DNA of 20,000 nt from assembly GCF_004010195.1 (NCBI RefSeq), contig NC_057749.1, positions 9,573,443 to 9,593,442 on the forward strand, read 5' to 3'. This DNA comes from Chiloscyllium plagiosum. Lineage: Eukaryota. This document shows, one piece after another, positions 72-20,000 of the stretch (within the stretch, counting starts at the first letter, position 1; each line of letters starts with the position of its first letter). The position numbers were made by a program, and so were the translations under genes. The notes under the pieces are model-generated. The model was given only the letters and a program-made list of their open reading frames with translations, searched no databases and was not told the origin of the DNA.

Positions 72-390
72 AAAACCAAAAGAACTGCGGATGCTGGAAA
101 TCAGAAACAAAAACAGAAGTTGCTGGAAAAGCTGAGCAGGTCTGACAGCATTGTTGGAGAGAAATCAATAGTTACATCCTCAGAACTGATGGGAGTGAGG
201 AAAATGTCGCTTAATATTCAGAAGATAGGGTGGGGGGAGGATGTAAGGAGTAAATGATAGGTGGTGATAGAGCCCAAAGAGAGAAAGGACAGTTGAACAG
301 ACAAAGGAGTGGATAACGATCTGGCTAGGAGGGTGAGTATCTATTAATGCGAACTATTAGTGGCTAACAATGGGTTTTGTGTAATAGCAG
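72..390 (-). mobile_element. PLE 3' UTR/terminal-repeat fragment, hammerhead stem II deleted
   Basis: Co-linear similarity to 5045-5313 (aaaacagaa.ttgctggaaaagct.agca.gtctg, agagcccaaagagaga, acaaaggagtg, attagtgg.t.acaa), which is attached to the GIY-YIG ORF remnant. Confidence 0.8.
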
Positions 391-678
391 TATTGAGCTG
401 GGATGTAAGTGTGCTGTTCAACCTCAATCATCTTCGTTCATCACTGGTATAATATCAGTCTCTGTTTTGGATGGGGACAAGGAGGTAGTGAGCCATAAGT
501 GATTAGTGAGTATCTATTAATGCGGACTATTAGTGGCTAACAATGGGTTTTGTGGAATAGCAGTATTGTGCTGGGATGTAAGTGTGCTGTTCAACCTCAA
601 TCATCTTCGTTCATCACTGGTATAATATCAGTCTCTGTTTTGGATGGGGACAAGGAGGTAGTGAGCCATAAGTGATTA
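333..678. repeat. Head-to-tail tandem duplication, 2 x 173 bp (333-505, 506-678)
   Basis: Direct comparison shows 3 substitutions and no indels. Confidence 0.95.
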
Positions 679-1069: not shown

Positions 1070-1545
1070 ATGGATAGAGCAAATGTTGAAAACTGTTTAC
1101 TGTTGGCAGGAGAGTCAATAACCAGAGGACAATGTGGTTAAGGCAAAAATGAGGACTGCAGATGCTGGAGATCAGAGACTGGATTAGAGTGGTGCTGGAA
1201 AAGCACAGCAGGTCAGGCAGTATCCGAGGACCAGGAAAATCGATGTTTCAGGCAAAAGCCCTTCATCAACGTGGTTAAGGTTACTGGCAAAGAAACTAGT
1301 GGTGATGTGAGGCAAAGACCTATCTACGCAGCCCAGCTGTACTAGCCTGGAATTCGCTGCCTGGGATGGCAGTGCAAGCAGATTCAATACTACGTTTTCA
1401 AAAGGGAACTAAATATTTAACACTGACTCGTTTGTAGGGCTACAGAGAAAGAGCAGGGGAATGGGACTAATTAGATAGCTCTTGCAAAGTTGTGGCTCAA
1501 TGGGCTGAATGGCCACAGTCTGTGATATAAAGTTCTATGATTCTG
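1070..1545 (+). mobile_element. Degenerate CR1-type LINE 3' fragment interrupted by a PLE mini-insert
   Basis: ggagagtcaataaccagaggaca encodes the GES.TRG motif of the CR1 ORF2 C-terminus; tail atgggctgaatggcc...ttctatgattct. Confidence 0.7.
1144..1266 (-). mobile_element. Short PLE-terminal-repeat insert with hammerhead remnant; 14-bp TSD
   Basis: TSD caatgtggttaagg (1130-1143) / caacgtggttaagg (1267-1280). Minus strand 1268-1242 reads TGATGA-A-GGGC-TTTT-GCCT-GAAAC-ATC. Confidence 0.85.
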
Positions 1546-1714
1546 CACTGAGTTTAGGATGTGTGTCAATCTCTGAGATTTGCTTAGCTAGCCAATGTGA
1601 CTGCTCTTCTTCTTGTTGCAAGCTCAGTGTTTTGCATTGCTCCCAGTTTGGAAAGATTGAGAAACAAGGTGAGACAGGACAAGAAGTATCGGGGTTAGAC
1701 ACCTGGAAACATTG

Positions 1715-1960
1715 AAAAGGCATTCACCCCTTTGATTCTGCTCCCCAATTCAATATGATCATCCAACTCAGTCCCCTGGTCCCACTTTCCCTCTTTGATC
1801 CCTTTGGCCCTAAGAACTACATCAAACTCTTTCCTGAAAACTTTCAATGTTTTGTCTTCAGTCACTTTGTGTGACAGAAAGTTCCACAGGCTCATCGCTC
1901 TTGGGTGACAAAATTTCTCCTCATCTCAGTCCTAGGTGCCTTAACCCTGTGACCCCTGGT
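1715..1960 (-). mobile_element. CR1-type LINE 3' fragment
   Basis: ORF 1695-1895 (SLWNFLSHKVTEDKTLKVFRKEFD) resembles the CR1 ORF2 C-terminus, as in 15439-15753. Confidence 0.75.
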
Positions 1961-1964
1961 CCGG

Positions 1965-2130
1965 CCATGTTACTGTGGGTGTGGAGTTACAGATACGTCT
2001 GGTGATGGATTCCAGATTTCCTTCCCGAAAGGACTTTGGATGTGGGTATTGTCAGCAACTGGTGATAGTCCCAGTGTCACCGTCACTGGGATGAGCTTTA
2101 TATATTCATTTAAATTTAAACCAGCCTGGG
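1965..2130 (-). mobile_element. Degenerate SINE fragment, same family as 2945-3190 and 10615-10800
   Basis: Shares ctgtgggt.tggagt.aca and agatttccttccc.aaaggac with 3049-3110. Confidence 0.55.
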
Positions 2131-2213
2131 AAAGGTTTGCCCTCATCTGCCTGTATTAATTGACTCACTGAGCCATGGCTGTTTTAGAGCAGAGTGAAGG
2201 GAGAACGATGCTA

Positions 2214-2424
2214 GATGTATGGAATCAGCTACCAGAGGAAGTGGTGGAAACTGGTACAATTGCAACATTTAAGTGGCATCTGGATGGGTATATGATTAGG
2301 AAGGGTTTGGAGGGATATGGGCCGGTTGCTGGCAGGTGGGACTAGATTGAGTTGGGATATCTGGACGGCATGAACGGGTTGGACCAAAGGGTCAGTTTCC
2401 ATGCTGTACATCTCTATGACTCTA
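2214..2424 (+). mobile_element. HER1/CR1 LINE 3' end, 5'-truncated
   Basis: Close match to the reverse complement of 19172-19380; ends in ctctatgactctat. Confidence 0.9.
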
Positions 2425-2469
2425 TTCCAGCTCCAGGACCTGATTCACATGTCAACTCTTCACACACAT

Positions 2470-2550
2470 GATGTGGGAGCTTGCTGTGTGTAAATTAACT
2501 GCTGCATTTCCTTCAGACAACCGTGACTACACTTCAAAGTAATTTCACAA
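2470..2550 (+). mobile_element. Deu-domain SINE (SacSINE/AmnSINE-like) 3' fragment
   Basis: tgtgggagcttgctgtg...gtgactacacttcaaag, also at 9684-9727 and 16893-16950. Confidence 0.6.
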
Positions 2551-2862
2551 GTAAACGGCCTCTGTTGATCATCTTGGATCTCTGCCTGCACAGTTAAATG
2601 CTGGGTTATGTTTCTGTCAGACTTATAGTCACTTCTGACTTTTCACAACCTTAAAATGAAAGGGACCTCCGTCAGTGCTTCCAAAATCTAAGGTTGAAGC
2701 ACATTGTTCAGTAGCAGCCTTATACCGTGGCCTTCTGTTCACAGCACTGTTACACAGAAGTACTCTTACCAACATGATGGCTGCCGTGGTATCACATTGC
2801 AGTATTTTGCTGCATCAATTGGCTGCGTTCGCGAGAATCAGGCTCAGCAGCTAAGATGTTCT

Positions 2863-2877
2863 TCACAACAGAGCAGT
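2863..2877 (-). CDS. Candidate last coding exon (TALL*) of DRAM/PGAP2-like gene
   Basis: Acceptor ctccccctactcag at 2878; phase 0 gives ACT GCT CTG TTG TGA; possible donor TTG|GTAAGA at 2769. No homology support for this exon. Confidence 0.3.
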   Translation of the reverse strand, partial: TALL

Positions 2878-2944
2878 CTGAGTAGGGGGAGCTTGGCGAT
2901 TTGTGTTTGTCTTTTCTCCTTCGTGGGATAAGTGTGTTGTTGTG

Positions 2945-3190
2945 GAGGCCAGCGTTTGGTGCCCATCCCTAATTGTCCTTGAACTGAGTGGCTTGAACTG
3001 AACTGCTGCATCATTCCAGGGGCTTACCCTTGAGAGTTAGACACATTGCTGTGGGTCTGGAGTCACATGTAGGTCTGGACATGGATCTGAGATTTCCTTC
3101 CCTAAAGGACATCGGTGAGTCAGAGGGGGTGTTTACACAATCAGTGATAGTTTCATGGTCATCACTACTGAGGTTAGCTTTATAAAGTCC
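2945..3190 (-). mobile_element. SINE 3' part sharing its tail with the LINE at 17750-18280
   Basis: tgcccatccctaattg is approximately the reverse complement of caattagggatgg at 18216-18228; the body overlaps 10615-10670. Confidence 0.65.
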
Positions 3191-3385
3191 CATGGCATCA
3201 TGGAGGGTTTTACAACAGTGATCGTGTCAATGTGAGTGCCACTATGAAGGGTTGCTTTGAAGAGATGGACACAATACTAGGCTGCTATTTTAAAATATAC
3301 ATTTAATATATATTTATGTTATATTGGACCTTAGGTTCCATTTCCCAGATTGTTAGCTTGGACCTCAGAACTATTACTACTGAAA

Positions 3386-3849
3386 TATTTACCAGGATGT
3401 TACCGAAGATTGGAGAGTTTGAGTTAGAAGGAGAGATCGGATCCTATTCCCCTGGAGAGTAGGAACTGAGGGGTGACCTTATAGTGGCTTGTAAAATCAT
3501 GAGAGGCATAGATAGGGTAGATAGCCAACAGCTTTTCCCCAGGGTAGGGGAGTCTAAAACTAGATGTCATAGGCTTAACCTGAGAGGGGAGAGCTACCAA
3601 CAGGGTCCAGAAAGGCAATTTTTTTCTCACAGAAGGTGGTGAGAGGGTGTGTGGAATGGGCTGCCAGAGTAGTAAAGCGAGTAAAATTTGTCATATAAGA
3701 AACATTTGGACAGGTTTGTGGATGGGATGGGTATGAAGGGACATGGACCAAACCCAGGCAAATGGGACAAGATTAATTGTGAAAACTGGATGGCAAGGGC
3801 ATGTTGGGTGGAAGGGCCTGTTTCCATGTTGTAGGCTTCTATGAGTCTA
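3386..3849 (+). mobile_element. CR1/HER1-type LINE 3' fragment, frameshifted
   Basis: Encodes FTRMLP, LRGDLIVACKIMRGIDRVD and FFSQKVVR motifs matching ORF 19251-19979; tail ttctatgagtcta. Confidence 0.9.
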
Positions 3850-4257
3850 CTACACCTGCCACGACAGCAGGGAGAGCCCTGCTAAGATGATCAATGCCTC
3901 TGGGAGAGAGTAAAATGGGTGGGATGTGGAGAGTTGGAAGATGCGATTCCTCTCAAAACAGAATTGAGTTTTTTTTTGCAAAATGACTCACAAGTAACAA
4001 TCTGGGGGACAGAAATATATTTGATAAAAGTCATCAAACGATCGGTGCATAGACAGTTAAATAAAGTCATTGTCCATTGTTAAGGAGTAGAAAGGTCACT
4101 GAATGTGAGGCCATACAATTGGCACCTGTCTTCAAAAACAAGAGATCAAGCTGTTCCACATCTCCCAGGTCCTGGCCACTTACTTTCAAAGTGTAATTTA
4201 CCACAATACTCCACAATATCTCCTTCACATCACTTGGCCTGGGAAGGATGGAATGGG

Positions 4258-4420
4258 CTGAAAATGTGTTGCTGGAAAAGCGCAGCAGGATTCCTGAAGA
4301 AGGGCTTATGCCCGAAACGTCGATTCTCCTGCTCCTTGGATGCTGCCTGACCTGCTGCGCTTTTCCAGCAACACATTTTCAGCTCTGATCTCCAGCATCT
4401 GCAGTCCTCACTTTCTCTTC
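4258..4420 (+). mobile_element. Fold-back PLE mini-element with intact hammerhead core; 14-bp perfect TSD
   Basis: TSD aaggatggaatggg at 4244-4257 and 4421-4434; perfect 33-bp inverted repeat 4257-4289 / 4351-4383. Confidence 0.9.
4290..4326 (+). ncRNA. Minimal type I hammerhead ribozyme motif, core intact
   Basis: CTGAAGA (4294-4300)-A-GGGC-TTAT-GCCC-GAAA-C-GTC (4319-4321); palindromic ACGT at helix III, as known for PLE minimal hammerheads; predicted cut after C4321. Confidence 0.8.
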
Positions 4421-4990
4421 AAGGATGGAATGGGGCTTATTTGGCAGACATGAATGGAAGAGTTCCAATAATTTCTTCTGTAAATGACAGAGAGCCAGTG
4501 TTTTGTTTGGGGCGGGAAGGATTCTATTTAATGGGACTTAATCTGAGCAGGAACACTCGGAAAATATCTATAATACTTTAGCAATCCCTTAATAAGTTTT
4601 ATGATTTTCTTTTCCTGGAGATGACGACAGGCCTGAAATTTCCACTTGAGCAGCTTCCAAATTTTGCTCCCAATTCATTTGGCCCCTCCATGTCTGACAC
4701 AGCTACAATGATGTCAAATGAGGACATGAGCTGGAATCAGCTGTGGCTATCTACTCACCCACTATCATTCACTCTATGACATGGGGCTAGTTCCTCCTCC
4801 AATCTGGCCCTGAAAGCTCTGAATCATTGTCAGACAGGCCATCAGGAATTGCAGAAACTCTAATCCCCCTTTGCTCCAACTCTGATTTCACTTTGATTCA
4901 AGCAACACTTAGAAGACATCAAGTAAATCCTGCTTTAGGGAACCATTCAAACACTGACTAGAAAAGTGTGAGACCTTAACGAATTCTCAC

Positions 4991-5014
4991 CACACCCTGG
5001 CCTTCTGTCCCCCT
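4991..5014 (-). CDS. Candidate 24-nt micro-exon (RGTEGQGV, phase 0-0)
   Basis: Acceptor tgacgttttgtgtttccag, donor GTG|GTGAGA; frame-preserving. Confidence 0.35.
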
Positions 5015-5330
5015 CTGGAAACACAAAACGTCATCAATGCAGGAAGAAAAACAGAAATTGCTGGAAAAGCTCAGCAAGTCTGGCAGCATCCAGACCTGGG
5101 GAGAAAGCAGAGTTCATGTTTTGGGTGCAGTGACCCTTCCTCAGAGCTGATGGGGTGGTGGGAGGTAAGAGAGTAAACTGTGGGTGGAAATAGAGCCCAA
5201 AGAGAGAGAGAGAACAGTTGGACAAAGGAGTGATTAAAGGTCAGTCTGGGGGAATGAATAGTTGCTAATGGGGAGTATTAGTGGTTGACAACAGGATAGT
5301 GTGTAGTAGCAGACTATGTGATAACAAGGC

Positions 5331-5548
5331 GAAAGTGGGTCCTGCAGATGCTGGAGATTAGAGTGGTGCTGGAAAAGCACAGCAGGTCAGGCAACATCCA
5401 AGGAGCAGGAAAATCGACGTTTTGGGCAAAGGCCCTTCATCAGGAATGATGAAGCCATTCCCCGATGAAGGGCTTTAGCCCGAAACGTCAATTTTCCTAC
5501 TCCTCCACTGCTGCCTGCCTTGCTGTGCTTTTCCAGCGCCACTCTAAT
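5331..5548. mobile_element. Palindromic head-to-head double-hammerhead PLE mini-element; 17-bp perfect TSD
   Basis: TSD ctatgtgataacaaggc at 5314-5330 and 5549-5565; inverted arms 5355-5448 / 5456-5550; cores at 5443-5416 (-, CTGATGA...AAAACGTC) and 5462-5489 (+, CCGATGA...GAAACGTC). Confidence 0.9.
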
Positions 5549-6030
5549 CTATGTGATAACAAGGCCTGGTGTGTGGGGCTGGGGTAAGGACATGGGCGAA
5601 GGTGTCTCAGGTGAACATTGTTGAACTTGATATTGAGTCCAGAAGGCTGGAGAGTTCCCAAGTAGAAGATGAGGTGCTGTTTTTCCAGTTTGTTTTGAGC
5701 TTCAATGGAACACTGCAGTGAGTCTGAGACTGAGATATTGGACAGGGAGCAGGGTGGTGTGTTGAAGTGGCAGGCAATGGAAGCTCAGGGTCTTTTTTGC
5801 CAACAGAACGTGGGCGTTCTGCAACATGGTCGCACGGTCTACACTTTGTTTTCCCAATGTAGAGGAGACCACATTGTGAGCAGCAAATGCAGTAGACTAG
5901 ATTGTGGGAAGTGCAGATAAAGCGCTGTTTCAACTGGAAGGTGTGCCTGGGGCATAGATGCTGAGGAGGGAGGAAGTAAACAGACAAGTGTTACACCTTC
6001 TGCAATTGCAGGGGAAGGTGTCATGGGGTT

Positions 6031-6053
6031 GTGGTGGTGGTGGTGGTGGTGGT
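6031..6053 (+). repeat. (GTG)7 microsatellite inside the PLE
   Basis: Read directly; explains the poly-H/P/T/V runs in overlapping ORFs. Confidence 0.95.
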
Positions 6054-6228
6054 TGGGGAGGAAAGAGGGGGGTGTTGCTTGGGTGGTGAGGAGGTGTTTT
6101 GGAAGGGAAGGAGAAGTGGACCAAGGTGTCCCAGAGGGAACAATCCCTGTGCAAGGCTGACAAAGGAAGGGAAGGTGAATGTGTGTCTGGTGGTGGCATC
6201 CCACTGGAGGTGATGGAGATGATGGCTA

Positions 6229-6327
6229 AAAATGTGTTGGCAGGTCAGGCAGCATCCAAGGAGCAGGAGAATCGACGTTTCGGGCATGAGCCCTTCTTCA
6301 GGACTCATGACTCATCACAGGACTCCT
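6229..6327 (-). mobile_element. Short PLE-terminal-repeat insert with intact hammerhead; 19-bp TSD
   Basis: TSD gtgatggagatgatggcta (6210-6228) / gtgatggagatggtggcta (6328-6346). Confidence 0.85.
6269..6306 (-). ncRNA. Minimal type I hammerhead ribozyme motif, core intact, 5-bp helix I
   Basis: Minus strand GAGTC-CTGAAGA-A-GGGC-TCAT-GCCC-GAAA-C-GTC-GATTC; GAGUC/GAUUC pair with one G-U. Confidence 0.8.
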
Positions 6328-6798
6328 GTGATGGAGATGGTGGCTAGTGATCCTCTGGATGCTGGTGGGATGGTAGGTGAGGATAGGGGGACCCTATCAC
6401 TTGTCAGAGGAAAGAGAGGGGCTAAGGGCTGAAGAGCAGGAGATGGTTGGGACCGAGCTGAGGGTCCTGTCAATTATGTTACTGGGAAATCCTTGGTTGA
6501 GGAAGATCATCAATATAGAGTTGGAATCTCAATGGGAGGGTTTTCCAGTTGGAATGTCATTGGACATTGCTGGAAACAAAAAAAAAGTCCAAATAGTCAT
6601 TCATGACATTGCTTTGGGGATTTTGCCCAACTCCTATTGGTAATGGCTAAAACATTACCATCTGATTTCCTGCAATCAAACTCCATACCCACCAGAACTT
6701 AAAAGTAAGCTCTGTGCTTCAGTTCATTGAATAATGTCTTCCTGAAACAAACAGACCAGGAAGCTAAAGATGCATTAGAAGTATATTTCAAATTACAT

Positions 6799-7255
6799 TG
6801 GAGTCAGAAGTTTGTGGGTTCCGTCTCAGAGACCTGAATGCCAAATCAGATCCAATACTCCAGCACAGTACTGGAGGAGTGCTGCATTGTCAGAGCTGTC
6901 ATCATTTGGATAAGACATTAGACTAAAAACCCTGTCTGCCATTACAGGCTTAAAAAGGTCTTTCAGAGATGAGTAGAGGATTATTACTGGAGTCCTGCCT
7001 TATATTTAACCCTCAATCAACATCAATAAAAGCAAATTTCTGATCATTGTCATCTGGTTGATTATGTACATGAGCAATAAAGCGAACTGCAGATGCAGGA
7101 AATTTAACACAAACTGCAAGTTCAGGAGAAACTCAGCTGTTTGTATATAGATTGGTTTATCAGCCTCCTACATTACAGCAATGACTACATCTCAAAATGA
7201 CTTCAGGGCTTCGGAATGCGTTGAGGTCATGAACCAAGCAAATGGAAATGCTTTC
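6799..7255 (+). mobile_element. Deu-domain SINE (SacSINE-like), interrupted by a PLE terminal fragment at about 7075-7138
   Basis: cagtactggaggagtgctgcattgtcagag and ccctgtctgcc Deu-like block; similar to 9305-9785 and 16630-17030. Confidence 0.7.
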
Positions 7256-7342
7256 TTTGGAAATAGTTTCATAAACAAATGGAATACAAAATAATATTCA
7301 AGTTGGTGATAGCCACAAAGCTGTACTACTGCTGAACACAAC

Positions 7343-7408
7343 CTTTTGCCCCTCGTACGCAGCATGAAGACTCGATTGGAACACATCCGAGAGACATAAT
7401 GTTATAAA
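7343..7408 (-). CDS. Candidate exon, 66 nt, phase 0-0: FITLCLSDVFQSSLHAAYEGQK
   Basis: Acceptor gtcacgttcctag; donor AAG|GTTGTG (weak); CpG retained; completes the E-Y-x15-D last-TM pattern of Frag1/DRAM proteins. Confidence 0.6.
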
Positions 7409-7689
7409 CTAGGAACGTGACAATAATGTAGGAAGTGGAACACTGTTAGCCTACTGAGCAAACAGCTGGACCTGCCATAACCCCCCAAAGTCAAGAAGAC
7501 TATTGGCTTAGTGATATCTACTTCATCTATGTCAGAATCCTGGCCTCCACAAAGTTGGGTTGAAGTGTGGTGCAACTGTCAGTCCAAAATAGAATCATGG
7601 CCACACAACATTGTAAACTAAGTAACTCATGGCAAGAGCTGCTACAGCTTCATCTCGATATTCCCCATCCCATGGATGTCTTCATCTAC

Positions 7690-8150
7690 CTCCAATACTT
7701 TCCCTCAACCTGAAGTCCTCCCCCAGGCCTTTTACCTGCACTTGACTTGTTCATTGACAATTATCGACGCGACATTGGTCACGTTAATTTCTCTGCCTCT
7801 GCGCCCCTTACCTATTCAAATGTATCTCCCTCTGAACTGACTGCACTTTGCACTCCTCGATCCAACCCTGTGAACAAGGGTAGTGCTGTTGTAGTCCCCC
7901 GTACTGATCTCAACGTTGTGCAGGCTGAGCGTAGCTCTCAGATACCTCCTCCTATTCCCTCCTGGACCATGACCCCACCATCAAGCATCACGCCATTGCG
8001 TCCACAACGGTCACTAAACCCATCTCATTCTGCCTCCCAACTCATAGTCCCCCAACCCCATACATCCTGCTCTACCTTCTTCCCGGAATTCAGCACAGGA
8101 CTGCCCAGGAAGACCCAAAGTTTATACCTGTTCCTGCCACACCAAACCCA
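7690..8150 (+). mobile_element. Penelope-like element internal fragment (pre-RT region)
   Basis: ORF 7747-8175 SNVSPSELTAL...NKGSAVVVPRTDL resembles a degenerate PLE DKG motif; frameshifted afterwards. Confidence 0.8.
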
Positions 8151-8439
8151 TCTGAGTCAGCAACTCCAAGTTTGAGCCTTAGCCCAGGACTCGATGGCCA
8201 AGGATGGTGCACTTGGACCAAGGTCAAACAGCTTGAGGGTTAACCTGTAAATCCTTCCAATACACACAATAATGGCAGACAGGGAGAGAAGGGGAAATTC
8301 CTGCTCAGCTCTGAGATGGATAGTCGCAGCCTCTACCATCACTATCCCTAGCTTCAGAGTGCAGGACCGATGTAATAGACCATGCTGTCAGAGTGGTTTG
8401 GTCCCCCTATGTGAACGACAGGGCAGAATGGTGTACCCT

Positions 8440-8511
8440 GATTCATATCATATTAAATGGCAGCGCAGGCTCAAGAAGCTGAATTGCTTATTCCTGCTCC
8501 TAGTTCTTATG
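8440..8511 (+). mobile_element. CR1-type 3' tail
   Basis: aatggcagcgcaggctcaagaagctgaattg...cctgctcctagttcttatg, similar to 15725-15815. Confidence 0.6.
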
Positions 8512-8532
8512 CTGTCTGTCAACTAATGTACA

Positions 8533-8704
8533 AAGTCAGAAGTCACACAACACCAGGTTATGGTCCAAAAAGTTTACTTGGAATCACAGACTTTCGGAAT
8601 ATACCTTCGTCGCTTGACAAAGGAGCAGCGCTCCAAAAACTTGTGATTTCCTGTTCAACTTGTGATTTTGTCCACCCCAGTCCAACACCAGCACTTCCAC
8701 ATCA
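8533..8704 (+). mobile_element. Second-family fold-back PLE-type mini-element with decayed hammerheads; 13-bp TSD
   Basis: TSD caactaatgtaca (8520-8532) / caactaatatgca (8705-8717); + core TTGACAA-A-GGAGC-AGC-GCTCC-AAAA (8614-8638); - remnant CGACGAAGG...CCGAAAG (8611-8590); aatcaca/tgtgatt inverted. Confidence 0.65.
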
Positions 8705-9304
8705 CAACTAATATGCACACACATTTAAAATTATGTAAATACCTAGCTTTAAAAAAAAGCATTTTTATGGTCACTAACCATCATTTATTCAAGTAAGATT
8801 GACTAAAATGTGGAACATATACAAATGAGGACATGTAGAAAGTGCAAGTTAATAATTTACAAAAGGAATGCGTTCCCATGTTAATCAAATCCAGTTCCAT
8901 TGCAAGCACAGGGCCAGATTTGAACTCCGTGTGAGTGAATCAGTGTTTTGCATTACTTGAAGTCTAGCACAACATGCTCAACAGTGTGTTTCCTCCTGGA
9001 AACTGGCAGGAAGGGAGATTTTGCTGACTGGCACCATCAGTGGAATTGTATCCAATTCCATAAATAGCTCTACCTGTGGTCATCATAGTGCCTGCCAACA
9101 GATTGCTCATTCTGACGCACCTTGGTTGCAGATATGTCAATAGGTGTTCATGCAATGCTTGCTAACATTGGTTGATGTAACGGGAATGAGCTGCTTCTGT
9201 TTTTGCTGAATGGACCTAGAATAGTTTAGCTTGATTCATTTCATTTCTATCAGCCTCCCGCTCTCTCTCTTGCACTTGCCAACTGGGAAAACTGTCATTG
9301 TAAC

Positions 9305-9785
9305 TGTCGGCTCAACCAGTGGCACTCCCACCTCTCAGTCACAAGGCTCCAGGTTCAAGTCCTGCTCCTGGGCTTGAGTGCAAACATCAAGGCCAGTGCT
9401 CCAGTGCAGTTGCAAAGAGGGAGTGCCATATTGTTGGAGATGCTGCCCATAGGTGAGAGATTAAACTGAGGCTCTGTTGGACTGTTTAGGTGGTTGTAAA
9501 AGATTCCGTGACACTATTCTGAAGAAAAAGGTGGTAGTCTCCTCTGTGTCCTGGCCAATACATGACACACAATATACCTACAACTACCACAACCAGCACC
9601 TGAGCTACAAAATCTTTACGCATACTTTGGCCAATATATATCCCTGAATCACCATCGCAAACACAGATCTTCACATCACTGTTTGTGGGAGCTCACTGTG
9701 TGCAACAACAGTGATCTCACTTCAAAAGTACTGCATTGGCTACAAGTGCTTTAAGATGGTGGTGACCGTGTTAAATGCAAGAAGA
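9305..9785 (+). mobile_element. Deu-domain tRNA-headed SINE (SacSINE-like)
   Basis: B box ggttcaagtcc (9352-9362), Deu-like block ctccagtgcagt...gagggagtgcc, 3' tgtgggag...cacttcaaaagta. Confidence 0.75.
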
Positions 9786-9943
9786 TTAAGAAGGTTTTCT
9801 TTGGAAACAATATTCCCTTAAACATAACGAATATCTGCTCTTATTAAATTTTACCTCTTCATCCAAGGTTTCGGTCACCGGTCCTAATATCTCCTATTTT
9901 GACTCAATGTTAAATTTTGTACGATCGCACTCCCGTGAAGAGC

Positions 9944-10266
9944 GGGACGGTACGGTGGCTCAGTGGTTAGCACAGCTGCCTCACAGCACCAGGGACCTGA
10001 GTTCAATTCCCGCCTGTCTGTGTGGAGTTTGCACATTCTCCCCGTGTCTGCGTGGGTTTCCTCCGGGTGTTCCAGTTTCCTGCCACACTCCAAAGATGTG
10101 CAGATTAGGTGAATTGGCCCATGTTAAATTGCCCATGGTGTTAGGTGCGTTAGTCAGAGGTAAATATAGGGTAGGGGAATGAGTTTGGGTGGGTTACTCT
10201 TCAGAAAGGCGGTGTGGACTTGTTGGGCCGAAGGGCCTGTTTCTACACTGTAGAGAATCTAATCTA
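9944..10266 (+). mobile_element. HE1-type tRNA-derived SINE, full length
   Basis: A box tggctcagtgg, B box gagttcaattccc, core tgtgtggagtttgcacattctccccgtgtctgcgtgggtttcc, LINE-derived tail and (aatct)n. Confidence 0.92.
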
Positions 10267-10614
10267 ACCGAAAGGGCCTTTTTACTGGCTTTCAATATAA
10301 ATGCAAGTTGTTACTGTTGTTTAGTACTTCCTTATTAATGTCTTTTTTAAAAATCTGGACATTTATGTCCCTCTTCAAATCTGGAATAGATTATATGACG
10401 TGGTCGAGCAATGTGCCATTTTTCATTATCTGAGGAGATGTGGGAAGCATTCTGAATAGCACAGCATTCATCCTTATCCTCCTCTTAGCATTTGAGCTGG
10501 GCCTGGCTGGTCATGCAATTCTCCACAACCTCTCCTCTCAGTTCTGAGAACATGGGACTTTCTTCATCTGGTATTATTTCAACTAATCCAGACTCCAACA
10601 ACAAATGCTCTTCT

Positions 10615-10800
10615 TAGTGAATCAGCTGGGTTTTCCACCAACAATGGAGTCATGGTTATCATTCGACTCTTAATTCGGGATATTTATTGAATTCAAATTC
10701 CACCATCTGGCATGGTGAGATTTGAATCTGGCTCCCAAGACATTACCTGGGTTTCTGGATTAACAGACCAGTGATAATACCACCAGGCCATCACTTCCCC
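10615..10800 (-). mobile_element. tRNA-headed SINE 5' half
   Basis: Minus strand tggcctggtggtattatcactgg (A box) ... gattcaaatctc (B-box-like); body overlaps 3115-3165. Confidence 0.65.
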
Positions 10801-10867
10801 TTTACAGCTTATGTTCATTTAAGGGTGATCTCAATAATCAATTGAGATAGAAAGGAATTGGACCTAC

Positions 10868-10951
10868 TGAAAGATGCGTTGAAGTCGTGCAATACTCAAA
10901 CCAAGCCGTGACTATATAATCTCCTTTCTCTTCATTTTTGAGCCTCTCATA
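10868..10951 (-). CDS. Candidate exon, 84 nt, phase 0-0: YERLKNEEKGDYIVTAWFEYCTTSTHLS
   Basis: Strong acceptor tgttttcctttag, donor TCA|GTAGGT; only phase 0 is open; AxxEYxxxxTHxSF resembles PGAP2 AxxEYxxxxTNxAF (recalled). Confidence 0.65.
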
Positions 10952-11303
10952 CTAAAGGAAAACATGCTGAGTTCCTCTTCTGACTGATGTTTTGATATCA
11001 CTATACAAAGACTTCGGTGGTTCCTCTAGACAGTGGGGGCATGAAGTGTTTTATGAGTGGTTTAGTAACTGCAGCTTCCTTGGCTAAACTTTGACATGTT
11101 TGATGACAAAGAAACAAGAGCACTGTGTGTTAAAAACCCTTGTTCACCAGTTTGCCTGTATCCCACAAAGGGGCTGTGTCTGAGCAACTAGAACAATGTG
11201 CATTTCTGTCGTGATTTCGAAAGAATATATTGGCTTTGGAGGGAGTACAAATTAGGATGACCAAAATGATTCCTGGACTTCAGGAGTTATGTGAGGAGAT
11301 TGT

Positions 11304-11603
11304 GGGCGGCACGGTGGCACAGTGGTTAGCACTGCTGCCTCACAGTGCCAGAGACCCGGGTTCAATTCCCGCCTCAGGCGACTGACTGTGTGGAGTTTGC
11401 ATGTTCTCCCCGTGTCTGCGTGGGTTTCCTCCGGGTGCTCCGGTTTCCTCCCACAGTCACAAAGATGTGCAGGTCATGTTAAATTGCCCGTAGTGTTAGA
11501 TAAGGGGTAAATGTAGGAGTATGGGTGGGTTATGCTTCGGCGGGTCGGTGTGGACTTGTTGGGCCGAAGGGCCTGTTTCCACACTGTAATGTAATCTAAT
11601 CTA
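11304..11603 (+). mobile_element. HE1-type SINE, young, nested in CR1; TSD attgt
   Basis: gggcggcacggtggcacagtggttagc...ggttcaattccc; CpG-rich; attgt at 11299-11303 and 11604-11608. Confidence 0.92.
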
Positions 11604-11705
11604 ATTGTACAAATTAGGCCGGTTTTCTCTGGAAATTACACGGTTAAGGAGGTGATCTGATTGACATCTTCAAGATAGTAACAGGAAAAGACAGTGTAGA
11701 TAAAG

Positions 11706-11800
11706 TTACAAAAACAGAAATTACTGGAAAAACTCAGTACATCCAGCAGCATCTGTGTAGAGAAAGCAGAGTTAACATTTTGGGTTCAGTAAATCTTCAC
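11706..11800 (-). mobile_element. PLE terminal-repeat insert truncated within the hammerhead core
   Basis: Matches 5045-5140; flanked by ataaag (11700-11705 / 11801-11806); CR1 sequence resumes on both sides. Confidence 0.75.
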
Positions 11801-14018: not shown

Positions 14019-14335
14019 GATGGCACAGTGGTTAGTGCTGCTGCTTCAGATTGCCAGGGTCCTGAGCAACTGACTGTGTGGAGTTTGCACATTCTCCCTG
14101 CGTCCATGTGGGTTTCCTCCGATTTTTCCAGTTTCCTCCCACTATCCAAAGATGTGTAGGTTAGGTGGATTGCCATGCTAAATTGCCCATAGTGTCCAGG
14201 ATTGTGCAGGCTAGGTGAATTAGCCATGGGAAATATGGAGTTACAGGGATTGTGTAGGGGTGGTGGGTCTGGGTGGTTCGGTGCGGACTCGATGGGCTGA
14301 ATGGTCTACTTCCACACTGTAGGGATTCTGATTCT
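14019..14335 (+). mobile_element. HE1-like SINE, B box deleted
   Basis: tggcacagtggttagtgctgctg, HE1 core, tail ccacactgtagggattctgattcta. Confidence 0.85.
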
Positions 14336-18973: not shown

Positions 18974-19170
18974 GGTGGCTCAGTGGTTAGCACTGCCGCC
19001 TCACAGCACCAGGGTCCCAGGTTCGATTCCAGCCTCGGATGACTGTCTGTGTGGGGTTTGCATGTTCTCCCCGTGTCTGCGTGGGTTTGCTCCGGTTTCC
19101 TCCCACAGCACACAAAAATGTGCAGGCCAGGTGAATTGGCCACGCTAAATTGCCCACAGTGCTAGGTACA
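18974..19170 (+). mobile_element. HE1-type SINE 5' part, cut off by the LINE
   Basis: A box tggctcagtgg, B box ggttcgattcc, HE1 core. Confidence 0.88.
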
Positions 19171-19171
19171 T

Positions 19172-20000
19172 TAGAGTCATAGAGATGTACAGCATGGAAA
19201 CAGACACTTCGGTCCAACCCGTTCATGCCGACCAGATATCCCAACCCAATCTAGTCCCACCTGCCAGCACCCGGCCCATATCCCTCAAAACCCTTCCTAT
19301 TCATATACCCATCCAAATGCCTCTTAAATGTTGCAATTGTACCAACCTCCACCACATCCTCTGGCAGCTCATTCCATACACGTACCACCCTCTGCGTGAA
19401 AAAGTTGCCCCTGAGGTCTCTTTTATATCTTTGCCCTCTCACCCTAACCCTATGCCCTCTAGTTCTGGACACCCCGACCCCAAGACCTTGTCTATTTATC
19501 CTATCCATGCCCCTCATAATTTTGTAAACCTCTATAAGGTCACCCCTCAGCCTCCGACACTCCAGGGAAAACAGCCCCTGCCTGTTCAGCCTCTCCCTGT
19601 AGTTCAGATCCACCAACCGTGGCAACATCCTTGTAAATGTTTTCTGAACCCTTTCAAGTTTCACAACATCTTTCCGATAGGAAGGAGACCAGAATTGCGC
19701 ACAATATTCCAACAGTGGCTTAACCAATGTGCTGTACAGCCGCAACATGACCTCCCAACTTCTGTACTCAATACTCTGACCAATAAAGGAAAGCATACCA
19801 AACACCGCCTTCACTATCCTATCTACCTGCGACTCTACTTTCAAGATGCTATGAATCTGCACTCCAAGGTCTCTTTGTTCAGCAACACTCCCTAGGACCT
19901 TACCATTAAGTATATAAGTCCTGCTAAGATTTGCTTTCCCAAAATGCAGCACCTCGCATTTATCTGAATTAAACTCCATCTGCCACTTCTCAGCCCATTG
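19172..20000 (-). mobile_element. HER1/CR1 LINE 3' part, young; continues beyond the window
   Basis: Open ORF2 C-terminus; 3' tail ctctatgactcta. Confidence 0.95.
19251..20000 (-). CDS. CR1-clade LINE ORF2 (reverse transcriptase C-terminal region), partial
   Basis: QWAEKWQMEFNSDKCEVLHFG...RDLGV...LVKPLLEYCAQFWSP...LRGDLIEVYKIM...FFTQRVVRVWNELP with no stop over about 250 codons. Confidence 0.9.
   Translation of the reverse strand, partial: QWAEKWQMEFNSDKCEVLHFGKANLSRTYILNGKVLGSVAEQRDLGVQIHSILKVESQVDRIVKAVFGMLSFIGQSIEYRSWEVMLRLYSTLVKPLLEYCAQFWSPSYRKDVVKLERVQKTFTRMLPRLVDLNYRERLNRQGLFSLECRRLRGDLIEVYKIMRGMDRINRQGLGVGVSRTRGHRVRVRGQRYKRDLRGNFFTQRVVRVWNELPEDVVEVGTIATFKRHLDGYMNRKGFEGYGPGAGRWD

What the first reader, a model, noticed from the sequence alone, without database searches (positions are those of the whole stretch)
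1240..11800. Insert 5' ends cluster at the 5' edge of the hammerhead core, not at the cleavage site
Seen: similarity to the repeat stops within about 5 nt of CUGANGA in every short copy (1268, 4290, 5448 and 5456, about 6302, about 8612, about 11799). Only the longer copies (72-390, 5030-6505) run past it. A self-cleaved template should begin after GUC, about 28 nt further 3'. Inference: either reverse transcription stalls or template-switches at the folded (dimeric) ribozyme, or the terminal repeat/transcript itself starts there.
Basis: partly seen in the sequence, partly recalled or inferred. Interest (0 to 1): 0.7.

Follow-up and report, generated by a model that had tools for sequence, protein, structure and literature searches.

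The report
Penelope stubs begin at transcript start
The many 100-130-base fragments of Penelope-like jumping genes in this vertebrate genome begin a few bases before their hammerhead ribozyme motif, most likely because the element's RNA starts there, not because the ribozyme stops or cuts anything.

Summary
In the window and in 20 random 10-kb stretches of the same 3.56-Gb genome, 26 of 51 short copies end within a 12-nt zone around a point 4 nt upstream of CUGANGA, where about 4.5 are expected. Only 4 of 51 end near the GUC cut site.

The repeats are ends of Penelope-like elements (PLEs). They have two classes of 3' end, the known "tail" signature of internal initiation of reverse transcription. 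They also have target-site duplications, head-to-head fold-backs and a minimal hammerhead.

Copies that run past the boundary carry a conserved T/A-rich block at -29 to -32 and an initiator-like YYANWYY exactly at the boundary, in at least three diverged lineages.

Elements that keep the start of the coding region end in the same zone or carry a partial upstream repeat.

Best reading: the boundary is the transcription start. Short copies are run-off cDNAs from the internal start site at +97 or +131 to the RNA 5' end, often followed by a template switch. A stall at the ribozyme is not supported.

There is no direct RNA 5'-end evidence; the one RNA run that matched was uninformative. This is a known kind of element with a probably undescribed detail. 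Earlier notes of this scan saw the stubs but not this reading.

The parts
1144..1268 (-). R-only stub, lineage A (CTGATGA), long form with tail. The 5' end in hammerhead sense lies at 1266-1268, inside or at the box.
   Evidence: Sequence. TSD CCTTAACCAC(G/A)TTG of 14 nt with 1 mismatch. BLAST q6-125.
4260..4420 (+). Insert made of an inverted 30-nt piece (4260-4289, the reverse complement of about 4351-4383) joined to a complete stub of lineage B. The stub starts with ATTCC at 4290. The box is at 4294-4300, GTC ends at 4321, and the tail runs to 4420.
   Evidence: Inverted repeat I15, 33 nt and 100% complementary. 17-nt TSD at 4243-4259 and 4421-4437, read.
5330..5548 (.). Head-to-head fold-back nested in the long copy. 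The minus arm is 5330-5447 and reaches ATTCC. A 13-nt spacer follows. The plus arm is 5461-5548 and starts TTCCCCGATGA.
   Evidence: Inverted repeat I3, 90 nt and 84%. 16-nt TSD CTATGTGATAACAAGG at 5314-5329 and 5549-5564, read.
6228..6329 (-). Stub of lineage B, short form. AGTCC starts at 6305. 24 extra nt (6306-6329) lie at its 5' end and repeat AGTCCTG.
   Evidence: TSD GATGGAGATG(A/G)TGGCT at 6212-6227 and 6330-6345. One search finds its 12-nt exact core.
8525..8700 (.). Fold-back of lineage D (helix II AGGAGC..GCTCC). The two arms are joined at their boxes at 8612/8613.
11708..11799 (-). Stub of lineage C. Its 5' end lies inside the box (GAAGA..., about +8).
72..390 (-). Long copy of lineage C. 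R has a deleted core. The predicted +1 is at 187, the T/A-rich block TATTAAG is at about 212-218 (-29), and U sequence lies beyond.
5030..6505 (-). Long copy of lineage C. R is 5030-5148 with the box at 5138-5144 and predicted +1 at 5148. U runs from 5149 to about 5585 and is interrupted by the nested fold-back. The GIY-YIG-like coding remnant runs from about 5585 to 6200 and beyond, interrupted by the nested stub.
   Evidence: (ORF 5607..5990 minus holds ..NLVYCICCSQCGLLYIGKT..).
7086..7139 (-). Partial copy: the 3' half of an R module only.
   Evidence: nhmmer hit, model positions 30-83.

Best explanation
The repeats are terminal pieces of Penelope-like retroelements (PLEs). Each lineage has a promoter-bearing untranslated region (U) followed by a segment I call R.

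**Layout of R (lineage B numbering).**
- R begins 4 nt upstream of CUGANGA.
- It holds the minimal hammerhead at +1..+36. Helix I is formed by nt +1..+4 and +33..+36, and the cut falls after +32.
- It ends at one of two sites, about +97 or about +131. Both lie in the 5'UTR, about 45 nt or more before the ATG.

**Proposed mechanism.**
1. RNA polymerase II starts at the first base of R.
2. The PLE reverse transcriptase starts cDNA synthesis internally at +97 or +131, as shown in vitro for the Anolis element PAc.
3. It then runs to the 5' end of the RNA.
4. When it starts on the R at the 5' end of a transcript, the product is a 100-130-nt dead-on-arrival stub whose 5' end is the transcript start.
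5. When it starts on a downstream R, the product is a long, usually 5'-truncated copy, or a full-length copy that again ends at +1.
6. At the end of the template the enzyme often switches template. This gives head-to-head fold-backs, or, by jumping to another R, the partial upstream repeat (pLTR).

The templates are uncleaved RNAs, so hammerhead cutting does not define insert ends.

**Shown here:** the boundary peak, the TSDs, the two classes of 3' end, the read-through copies and the motif conservation.

**Inferred:** that the boundary is a transcription start, and the order of events.
For: **1. Peak of 5' ends.** 26 of 51 short copies end at -5..+6, P = 1e-14. In the independent 200 kb the count is 21 of 43.

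**2. The ends are true insert ends.** TSDs of 10-17 nt flank the inserts.

**3. The 3' ends are bimodal.** 29 HSPs end at q77-99, 27 at q114-131 and 0 at q100-113. This equals the optional 30-40-nt 'tail' that Frangieh et al. 2024 (PMC11167929, main text read) trace to two adjacent internal start sites of reverse transcription about 85-92 nt 3' of the hammerhead cut.

**4. Promoter-like sequence in read-through copies.**
- 13 of 14 U-bearing copies of lineages A/B have (T/A/C)TATCT starting at -29..-32.
- 3 of 3 lineage C copies have TATAAA, TATTAA or TTTACT at -29.
- YYANWYY with A at the boundary is exact in 10 of 14 A/B copies and 2 of 3 C copies.

**5. Copies that keep the ORF start end in the same zone.** Of 24 copies holding the N-terminal coiled-coil region:
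- 3 start at +1..+8 next to unrelated DNA (L036, L044, L056);
- 3 have fold-backs joined at -4..+22;
- 3 carry a 5'-cut U in front of R (L038, L039, L052).

**6. Inverted arms stop at the same point.** Inverted R arms glued to 5'-truncated elements end at +1 (L023) or at about +17 (L028).

**7. Fold-backs are asymmetric.** In 8 of the 10 A/B/E fold-back pairs, one arm reaches +1..+3 and the other starts further in. This is expected if run-off is followed by a switch.

**8. Rough copy-number step.** Summed contig word depth is 5-10 times higher over R than over U. The step lies between bins 5952-5990 and 5991-6029, where +1 (5982) lies. The tool warns that this depth is not a copy number.

**9. 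Agreement with published work.** Frangieh et al. found that hammerhead mutants do not change insertion and that no RNA-seq reads begin or end at the cut site. D. virilis Penelope and Chlamys-3 have their start site in the pLTR.
Against: - No RNA 5'-end evidence was obtained.
  - In the one RNA run that matched (single-cell polyA, X21), depth falls about 12-fold from R to U. The contig word depth of the two DNA-type runs falls 5.5- and 9.6-fold, so the RNA looks like passive transcription of copies.
  - The table of places where molecules begin listed none. X22 laid no reads.
- The T/A-rich block of lineages A/B (TTTATCT) is a weak TATA.
- The motif set was chosen after seeing the data.
- The 8 lineage B copies are close relatives, so only about 5 lineages are independent.
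- The D. virilis promoter is TATA-less and internal, so an upstream promoter is not the rule in PLEs.
- TSDs move several ends to +5..+9, and 7 more ends lie at +7..+12. The ends are therefore less sharp than a single start site would give.
- The class counts rest on my reading.
No undamaged full-length 5' end was seen.
Confidence: 0.6

Rival explanations
1. The 100-130-nt units are a self-propagating, SINE-like non-autonomous family. They carry their own internal promoter and are mobilised in trans by PLE proteins. Their 5' end is still a transcription start, but of the stubs themselves.
For: - Summed contig word depth is 5-10 times higher over R than over U.
- D. virilis Penelope uses an internal, TATA-less promoter with initiator and downstream element (PMC2377424, passages).
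- The preprint 10.64898/2026.07.22.740005 (abstract and section 14) argues that animal retrozymes are non-autonomous PLE derivatives.
Against: - Each of the lineages A, B, C and D has long copies and short or fold-back copies with the same boundary. That fits by-products of each autonomous lineage better than one SINE lineage.
- The conserved T/A-rich block lies upstream, outside the stub.
- No head-to-tail arrays were seen. There are 4 same-strand neighbour pairs against 17 opposite-strand pairs, and several of the same-strand pairs mix lineages.
- Not excluded.
Confidence: 0.15
2. Reverse transcription stops or is blocked at the hammerhead, because of its fold, its dimer or a protein bound there. 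The RNA continues further 5'.
For: - The boundary coincides with the edge of a structured motif.
- The PAc protein binds the first 172 nt of its ORF region.
- Fold-back joints also occur inside helix II (L011, L019).
Against: - The enzyme meets the motif from its 3' side and has copied all of it before the boundary.
- 13 of 64 classifiable copies continue through without a break.
- Lineages with different helix II sequences and lengths share the same boundary relative to the initiator-like motif, not relative to the stem.
- Copies that keep the ORF start end in the same zone after about 3 kb of synthesis.
Confidence: 0.1
3. The RNA 5' end at the boundary is made by RNA processing: another nuclease, or an unconventional cut by the paired hammerheads. 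It is not made by transcription initiation.
For: The 3 nt before the boundary read NUH in lineages B (CUC), A (UUU), C (AUC) and D (CUA). NUH is the hammerhead cleavage triplet; this rule is recalled, not from a call.
Against: - With only 4 nt between that site and C3 there is no room for helix I.
- In a trans geometry, nt 1.1 (A) would face 2.1 (C), which is not a pair. This is my reasoning on the sequences.
- One lineage has CAG there (L012).
- Pyrimidines at -2 and -1 are equally expected from an initiator.
Confidence: 0.08
4. Artefact: the upstream sequence is present but too diverged to recognise.
For: Many copies are 75-90% identical to each other.
Against: - TSDs abut the boundary.
- Young copies of 95-98% identity show the same boundary (L004:3187, L015).
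- The upstream flank is often the inverted arm or an identifiable other repeat.
Confidence: 0.02

Closest known systems
Minimal hammerheads (min-HHR) in pseudo-LTRs of metazoan Penelope-like elements (Cervera and de la Pena 2014, PMC4209133; first quarter of the text and passages read)
   Same: - Core CUGANGA...GAAA...UH.
- An unpaired base before helix II.
- A short helix I.
- No helix III loop, with a palindromic ACGU/AGCU.
- Massive numbers of single motifs, 'probably related to truncated PLEs'.
- Pairs on opposite strands.
   Different: In the parts I read, that paper does not say where the single motifs end, nor relate the motif to the transcript start. Here the copies end 4 nt before the core, at a promoter-like boundary.
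PAc (Poseidon of Anolis carolinensis): internal initiation of reverse transcription (Frangieh et al. 2024, PMC11167929; main text read)
   Same: - Two adjacent start sites of reverse transcription lie some 65-100 nt 3' of the hammerhead cut and give the optional 'tail'.
- Uncleaved RNA is the template.
- Both DNA strands are cut and extended, which can give inverted arms.
   Different: - In PAc the ORF begins inside the hammerhead and the start sites lie 111-118 nt into the ORF.
- Here the ATG lies about 45 nt after the tail, so R is 5'UTR.
- The 5' ends of genomic copies are not treated in the text I read.
Penelope of Drosophila virilis: start site in the pLTR (Schostak et al. 2008, PMC2377424, passages; Craig et al. 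2021, PMC8557442, passages)
   Same: The transcript starts inside the terminal repeat. An initiator is present.
   Different: The fly promoter is TATA-less and internal. A 75-nt intron begins 46 nt after the start. The hammerhead lies at the intron's 3' end, so it is not at the first transcribed base.
R region and minus-strand strong-stop DNA of LTR retroelements (textbook knowledge, recalled)
   Same: - A segment is present at both ends of the RNA, running from the start site to the priming or end point.
- A short run-off cDNA ends at the RNA 5' end.
- A jump to the other R rebuilds the upstream repeat.
   Different: - Priming is target-primed and internal, not by tRNA.
- The stubs are integrated into the genome.
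- The jump is optional and gives variable pLTRs.
- It is an analogy only.
HDV-like ribozymes at the 5' end of R2 and other non-LTR elements (Eickbush and Eickbush 2010; Ruminski et al. 2011; seen only as entries in the reference list of PMC4209133; content recalled)
   Same: A self-cleaving motif sits at the very 5' end of a retroelement RNA.
   Different: - HDV-like ribozymes cut at their own 5' edge and so define the element's 5' end.
- The hammerhead cuts 32 nt inside.
- Only 4 of 51 inserts start near that cut.
5' inversion of L1 by twin priming (recalled)
   Same: Inserts consist of an inverted 5' piece joined to a direct 3' piece, within one TSD (for example 4260-4420).
   Different: Here the inverted piece duplicates part of the direct piece, and most pairs meet at the template's 5' end.

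Membership tests
Penelope-like elements (canonical, endonuclease-bearing) | Reverse transcriptase domain of the PLE/telomerase-like type | tested here: inconclusive
   Pfam RVT_1 scored 24.4 bits, below the 29.6 cut-off, on a decayed ORF of L029. Assignment to a clade was not tested. Intact copies read N.
Penelope-like elements (canonical, endonuclease-bearing) | C-terminal GIY-YIG endonuclease | tested here: inconclusive
   Pfam GIY-YIG scored 20.1 bits, below the 22.6 cut-off, on L033. The motif ..LVYCI.C..CG.LYIG.. is read in window 5607-5990 minus. It lies upstream of U-R as expected.
Penelope-like elements (canonical, endonuclease-bearing) | Pseudo-LTR: a 5'-cut partial copy in front of a full-length unit | tested here: met
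   L038 (U from -105), L039 (-47) and L052 (at least -38). In each, U is followed by R, the 5'UTR and the start of the ORF.
Penelope-like elements (canonical, endonuclease-bearing) | Inverted 5'-truncated copy adjoining the 5' end | tested here: met
   L023, L028, L037, L042, L047 and L055. There are 17 opposite-strand neighbour pairs in 220 kb.
Penelope-like elements (canonical, endonuclease-bearing) | Optional 30-40-nt tail, that is, two alternative ends | tested here: met
   3' ends fall at q77-99 (29 HSPs) and q114-131 (27 HSPs), with none between. Loose ends lie at 5321 and 5364 and at 5886 and 5893.
Minimal hammerhead of PLEs (min-HHR) | Conserved core CUGANGA, GAAA and UH in order and spacing | tested here: met
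   39 copies were parsed and aligned. 13 further regex matches were dropped because they have no helix II and lie outside the repeat families.
Minimal hammerhead of PLEs (min-HHR) | Helix II kept through changes on both sides | tested here: met
   GGGC/GCCC in A/B, GGGTC/GACCC in C and GGAGC/GCTCC in D. The comparison was by eye between lineages. No formal count was made because MAFFT puts the lineages out of register.
Minimal hammerhead of PLEs (min-HHR) | Helix I of 4-5 bp | tested here: inconclusive
   3 of 4 pairs in A/B (ATTC/GATT), 4 of 4 with the lineage C consensus strands AGTT/AACT (mean 3.0 of 4 over 3 decayed copies) and 3 of 4 in D, with one compensatory pair (CCAC/GTGC against CTAC/GTAC). 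In A/B a register shifted by -1 scores almost as well (2.66 against 2.76).
Minimal hammerhead of PLEs (min-HHR) | Self-cleavage | not testable with these tools
   Needs transcription and cleavage assays. The published min-HHRs cleave poorly alone.
Rfam hammerhead families | Score above the gathering threshold | tested here: not met
   No hammerhead match, even at E up to 10. This is expected for motifs without helix III.
Non-LTR retrozymes (tandem hammerhead repeats) | Head-to-tail arrays with one hammerhead per unit | tested here: not met
   Copies are dispersed singles or inverted pairs with TSDs. There are 4 same-strand neighbour pairs in 220 kb; several mix lineages and none forms an array.

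The most novel reading that the evidence does not exclude
PLE transcripts of these vertebrate lineages begin with the first base of the hammerhead. The pseudo-LTR then works like U3-R of an LTR element. R runs from the cap site to the internal start site of reverse transcription. R-only stubs are integrated strong-stop-like cDNAs. The pLTR is rebuilt by a jump from the 5' R to another R. Hammerhead cleavage 32 nt from the cap would shed the cap. It could act as a switch that takes an RNA out of translation or templating, rather than as a processing step that defines the element's ends.
Probability: 0.2. Interest if true: 0.7.

Novelty: new member of a known kind. Interest (0 to 1): 0.4.

Why it matters
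What the hammerhead does in Penelope-like elements is an open question. It was first proposed to cut unit RNAs out of tandem transcripts. If that were so, inserts should begin at the cut.

Here inserts of four lineages begin 32 nt before the cut, at a promoter-like boundary. Only 4 of 51 begin near the cut. This agrees with the in vitro finding that cleavage is not needed for insertion.

The result places the ribozyme at the extreme 5' end of the RNA. It gives a simple origin for the very many solo hammerhead motifs in vertebrate genomes: run-off cDNAs from an internal start site close to the 5' end. It also gives a concrete, cheap test, 5'-end mapping at one predicted base.

Tried and rejected
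- **Rfam:** no hammerhead hit at the gathering score or at E up to 10.
- **DNA search of the own genome with the stub:** no match, because very common words are skipped. It could not serve as a count.
- **All-against-all extension of flanks:** too noisy, because fold-backs align with fold-backs. I replaced it with the listing and the reference panel.
  - mis-places six copies that have indels or palindromes: L001_3615, L005_3425, L010_3973, L011_1685, window_168 and window_5106.
- **RNA.**
  - No RNA holder was listed.
  - X22 laid no reads.
  - X21 reads mirror the contig word depth of the DNA-type runs, and no start places were listed.
  - This is no test of expression or of the start site.
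- **The loose-end table** shows only the best-supported rows (1639 more were not shown), so it is not a full histogram. Rows shown near the boundary are X2 at 5981 (84) and X1 at 5973 (40).
- **Pfam GIY-YIG search of the genome:** scored only 150 of 14403 candidates and gave one weak hit.
- **Undamaged full-length 5' ends.** The stretch upstream of a copy with a long open frame came back with 2109 of 3001 letters as N. I did not pursue withheld stretches.
- **Formal pair counting:** not done, because the MAFFT alignment A1 puts lineage D one column out of register. I counted helix I pairs by script instead.
- **Splice acceptor at the boundary:** rejected, because stubs include the AG in lineage C and carry no upstream exon.
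- **Extra G from a copied cap:** not seen. The base before +1 is mostly C, as in U.
- **Enrichment of ends at the cut site:** 4 of 51 against 4.5 expected. Among ends at +13 or beyond it is 4 of 18 against 1.8 expected, P = 0.10.
- **Literature.** Searches for a paper that links the PLE start site to the hammerhead found none that states it.
  - Terms used: Penelope-like + hammerhead + pLTR; Penelope + transcription start site + hammerhead; Penelope + internal promoter + transcription start + intron.
  - Supplements such as Fig. S2 of PMC11167929 were not seen and may bear on genomic 5' ends.

Full report
**What the window is.** The window lies in a 3.56-Gb, chromosome-scale vertebrate assembly (C40:9573443-9593442). 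Earlier notes of this scan call the organism a shark. The window is full of short repeats that share a module after the motif CUGANGA-stem-GAAAC-GUC.
- Rfam finds no hammerhead, at the gathering score or at E up to 10.
- The bare heptamer is at chance level, 15 found against 15.2 expected.
- The case therefore rests on the repeat context.

**The observation in the window.** I number positions from the A of ATTCC (+1). The box is then +5..+11 and GUC ends at +32.

| Insert | Strand | Content and 5' end | TSD |
|---|---|---|---|
| 1144-1268 | minus | stub ending at TGATGAAGGGC | 14 nt |
| 4260-4420 | plus | 30-nt inverted piece, then a complete unit from ATTCC at 4290 | 17 nt |
| 5330-5548 | both | head-to-head pair whose arms end at 5447 and 5461 | 16 nt; nested in a longer element |
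| 6228-6329 | minus | starts AGTCC at 6305 after 24 extra nt | 16 nt |
| 8525-8700 | both | fold-back of another lineage, joined box to box | not examined |
| 11708-11799 | minus | ends inside the box | none found |

Only 72-390 and 5030-6505 (both minus strand) continue upstream. The second encodes a GIY-YIG-like remnant.

**Is it more than chance?** I fetched 20 random 10-kb stretches, one from each of the 20 largest contigs. A profile of the module 3' of the cut finds 68 copies in these 200 kb plus the window, about one per 3.2 kb. From the sense-oriented listing of all 68 I classed them as follows:

| Class | Copies |
|---|---|
| Long (run past the boundary) | 13 |
| Ambiguous | 2 |
| Unusable (assembly gap, window edge) | 2 |
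| Ends at -5..+6 | 26 |
| Ends at +7..+12 | 7 |
| Ends at +13..+26 | 6 |
| Ends at +27..+38 | 4 |
| Ends further 3' | 8 |

- With ends spread evenly, 4.5 of 51 would fall in the 12-nt zone. The observed 26 gives P = 1e-14.
- Leaving out the window, where the idea arose, the count is 21 of 43, P = 1e-11.
- An automated call from the best BLAST HSP against a panel of long copies gives 24 of 65 in -7..+6. It mis-places six copies that have indels or palindromes.
- The zone around the cut site holds 4 of 51 against 4.5 expected. Among ends at +13 or beyond it holds 4 of 18 against 1.8 expected, P = 0.10.
- TSDs with short overlaps show that some ends I read as +1..+6 lie at +5..+9. The peak is a zone, not one base.
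- As a rough genome-wide check, contigs of two public DNA-type runs laid on a long copy give 5-10 times more summed word depth over R than over the upstream region. The step falls in the pair of bins that holds +1. The tool warns that this depth is not a copy number.

**What the elements are.** The features are those listed for Penelope-like elements (Craig et al. 2021, passages):
- heavy 5' truncation;
- partial upstream repeats (pLTRs);
- an inverted 5'-cut copy at the 5' end;
- an optional 30-40-nt tail;
- a hammerhead in the repeat.

The 3' ends are bimodal: 29 HSPs end at q77-99, 27 at q114-131 and none between. Frangieh et al. 2024 (main text) showed for the Anolis element PAc that reverse transcription starts at two adjacent internal sites of the RNA, 85-92 nt 3' of the hammerhead cut, and that the stretch between them is the tail. 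They also showed that hammerhead mutants do not affect insertion, that both DNA strands are cut and extended, and that no RNA-seq reads begin or end at the cut.

Decayed ORFs give sub-threshold Pfam hits to RVT_1 and GIY-YIG. The motif matches the min-HHR of Cervera and de la Pena 2014: an unpaired base before helix II, no helix III loop, and a palindromic ACGU or AGCU.

Helix I would be made of nt +1..+4 and the 4 nt after the cut.
- It has 3 of 4 pairs in lineages A/B.
- With the lineage C consensus strands AGTT/AACT it has 4 of 4 pairs (mean 3.0 of 4 over 3 decayed copies).
- It has 3 of 4 pairs in D, with one compensatory change.
- In A/B a register shifted by one scores nearly as well, so this is weak support.

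**What lies at the boundary.** In copies that run past it, the upstream sequence (U, about 230 nt between the end of the endonuclease ORF and +1) differs between lineages but keeps two things.
- A T/A-rich block starts at -29..-32 in 13 of 14 U-bearing copies of lineages A/B. In the fourteenth an insertion moves it to -54. In 3 of 3 lineage C copies it reads TATAAA, TATTAA or TTTACT at -29.
- The boundary itself reads YYANWYY, with the A as first base of the stubs. This is exact in 10 of 14 A/B copies and 2 of 3 C copies.

Lineage D has TATAAAT 34 nt before its CCAC. The TATA-box and initiator consensus sequences are recalled knowledge. The motif set was chosen after seeing the data. The eight lineage B copies are close relatives. 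This is suggestive evidence from about five lineages, not proof.

**Elements that keep the start of the ORF.** Two protein searches of the genome found hundreds of copies of the N-terminal region. Intact copies are withheld (N). Of 24 copies that hold the N-terminal coiled-coil region (4, 20 taken in list order):
- 3 begin at +1, +5 and +7 next to unrelated DNA;
- 3 have fold-backs joined at -4..+22;
- 1 has a long inverted copy;
- 3 have a 5'-cut U in front of R (a pLTR);
- 2 end inside R;
- 2 are masked;
- 10 are cut 3' of R.

In L036 and L038, R and the tail are followed by about 45 nt and then an ATG that opens the ORF. R is therefore the 5'UTR, and both start sites of reverse transcription lie in it. 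Inverted R arms joined to 5'-truncated elements end at +1 (L023) or at about +17 (L028).

**Mechanism.** Putting this together:
1. Transcription starts at +1, 4 nt before the box, so the hammerhead occupies the first 36 nt of the RNA.
2. The element's enzyme starts cDNA synthesis internally at about +97 or +131 and copies to the RNA 5' end.
3. On the R at the 5' end of an RNA, this yields a 100-130-nt stub without a promoter.
4. On a downstream R, it yields long copies.
5. At the end of the template the enzyme often switches.

In 8 of the 10 A/B/E fold-back pairs, one arm reaches +1..+3 while the other begins further in. This fits run-off followed by copying back, or joining of two cDNAs made from the two cut strands. 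A jump to another R would give the pLTR.

The boundary, the TSDs, the two 3' ends and the read-through copies are shown. The start site and the order of events are inferred. I put this at 0.6.

**Rivals.**
- *A stall at the fold (0.10).* It fits poorly. The enzyme has already copied the whole motif. 13 of 64 classifiable copies run through. The boundary follows the initiator-like motif rather than the stem.
- *A self-propagating SINE-like unit with an internal promoter (0.15).* It shares the start-site claim and is not excluded. However, each of four lineages has long copies and short or fold-back copies with the same boundary, and the conserved block lies outside the stub.
- *Processing by another cut at the boundary (0.08).* It has no workable hammerhead geometry.
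- *Undetected diverged homology (0.02).* It is excluded by the TSDs.

**What is missing.** I have no RNA 5'-end data. The only raw RNA run that matched (single-cell, polyA) shows a drop in depth across the boundary of about 12-fold. The contig word depth of the DNA-type runs drops 5.5- and 9.6-fold. No places where molecules begin were listed.

The D. virilis element has a TATA-less internal promoter and an intron between its start site and the hammerhead. The arrangement proposed here is therefore not general to PLEs.

I found no paper that states the relation between insert 5' ends, the start site and the hammerhead. I did not see supplements.

**Verdict.** The elements are a known kind. The added detail is modest but testable. 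Earlier notes of this scan on the same genome described the stubs and fold-backs. None holds the start-site reading.

Noticed in passing
window 333-678: A 173-nt unit is duplicated in tandem at 98% identity (family D4). It lies next to, and partly inside, the U region of the long copy at 72-390.
   Followed up: no
window 9954-10075, 11313-11434, 14021-14062, 18974-19095: Copies of a SINE-like repeat whose head resembles a tRNA (families D1 and D6). Several stubs in other loci are inserted next to this repeat.
   Followed up: no
window 2209-2424 and 19172-19387: A 216-nt inverted repeat, 91% complementary, with arms 16.7 kb apart (I1). It is probably two copies of another dispersed repeat.
   Followed up: no
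window 7714-8172 (+): An open frame of 153 aa that resembles the N-terminal region of PLE proteins seen in L029 and L030. It is a fragment of another PLE copy with no R upstream.
   Followed up: partly
L004:7258 and L038 (about 105 nt before +1): Two unrelated loci have their U cut at the same base (GGCCTATCACCC...). One is a bare U-R piece. The other is the pLTR of an element that keeps the start of its ORF. This could be a preferred jump or truncation point, or a second start site.
   Followed up: no
+25..+32 of R, e.g. window 4314-4321: The hammerhead's GAAACGTC lies at the distance from the initiator-like A at which a downstream promoter element is expected in TATA-less promoters, and it shares the ACGT core of that element. 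The consensus is recalled; quotes RGACGTGY for fly elements. This may be coincidence.
   Followed up: no
L008:4554, L009:8810, L014:1362, L014:2644: Four arms or stubs begin at +27..+35, close to the predicted cut after +32. There are too few to call a peak (P = 0.10), but they could come from cleaved RNA.
   Followed up: partly
L024 (sense coordinates about 640-840): The 5' end of a truncated PLE is a fold-back whose arms enclose a short piece resembling the reverse transcriptase region (..GRPIVSACSYPTELIS..).
   Followed up: no
L034, and N runs in L025-L032, L045, L052, L057: Stretches over the better-preserved PLE copies are withheld. The long 'open frames' reported partly reflect N read as X, so they cannot be taken as intact genes.
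   Followed up: no
L012:8000-8063: A (CTAAT)n microsatellite is inserted at the end of the endonuclease ORF of a PLE copy.
   Followed up: no
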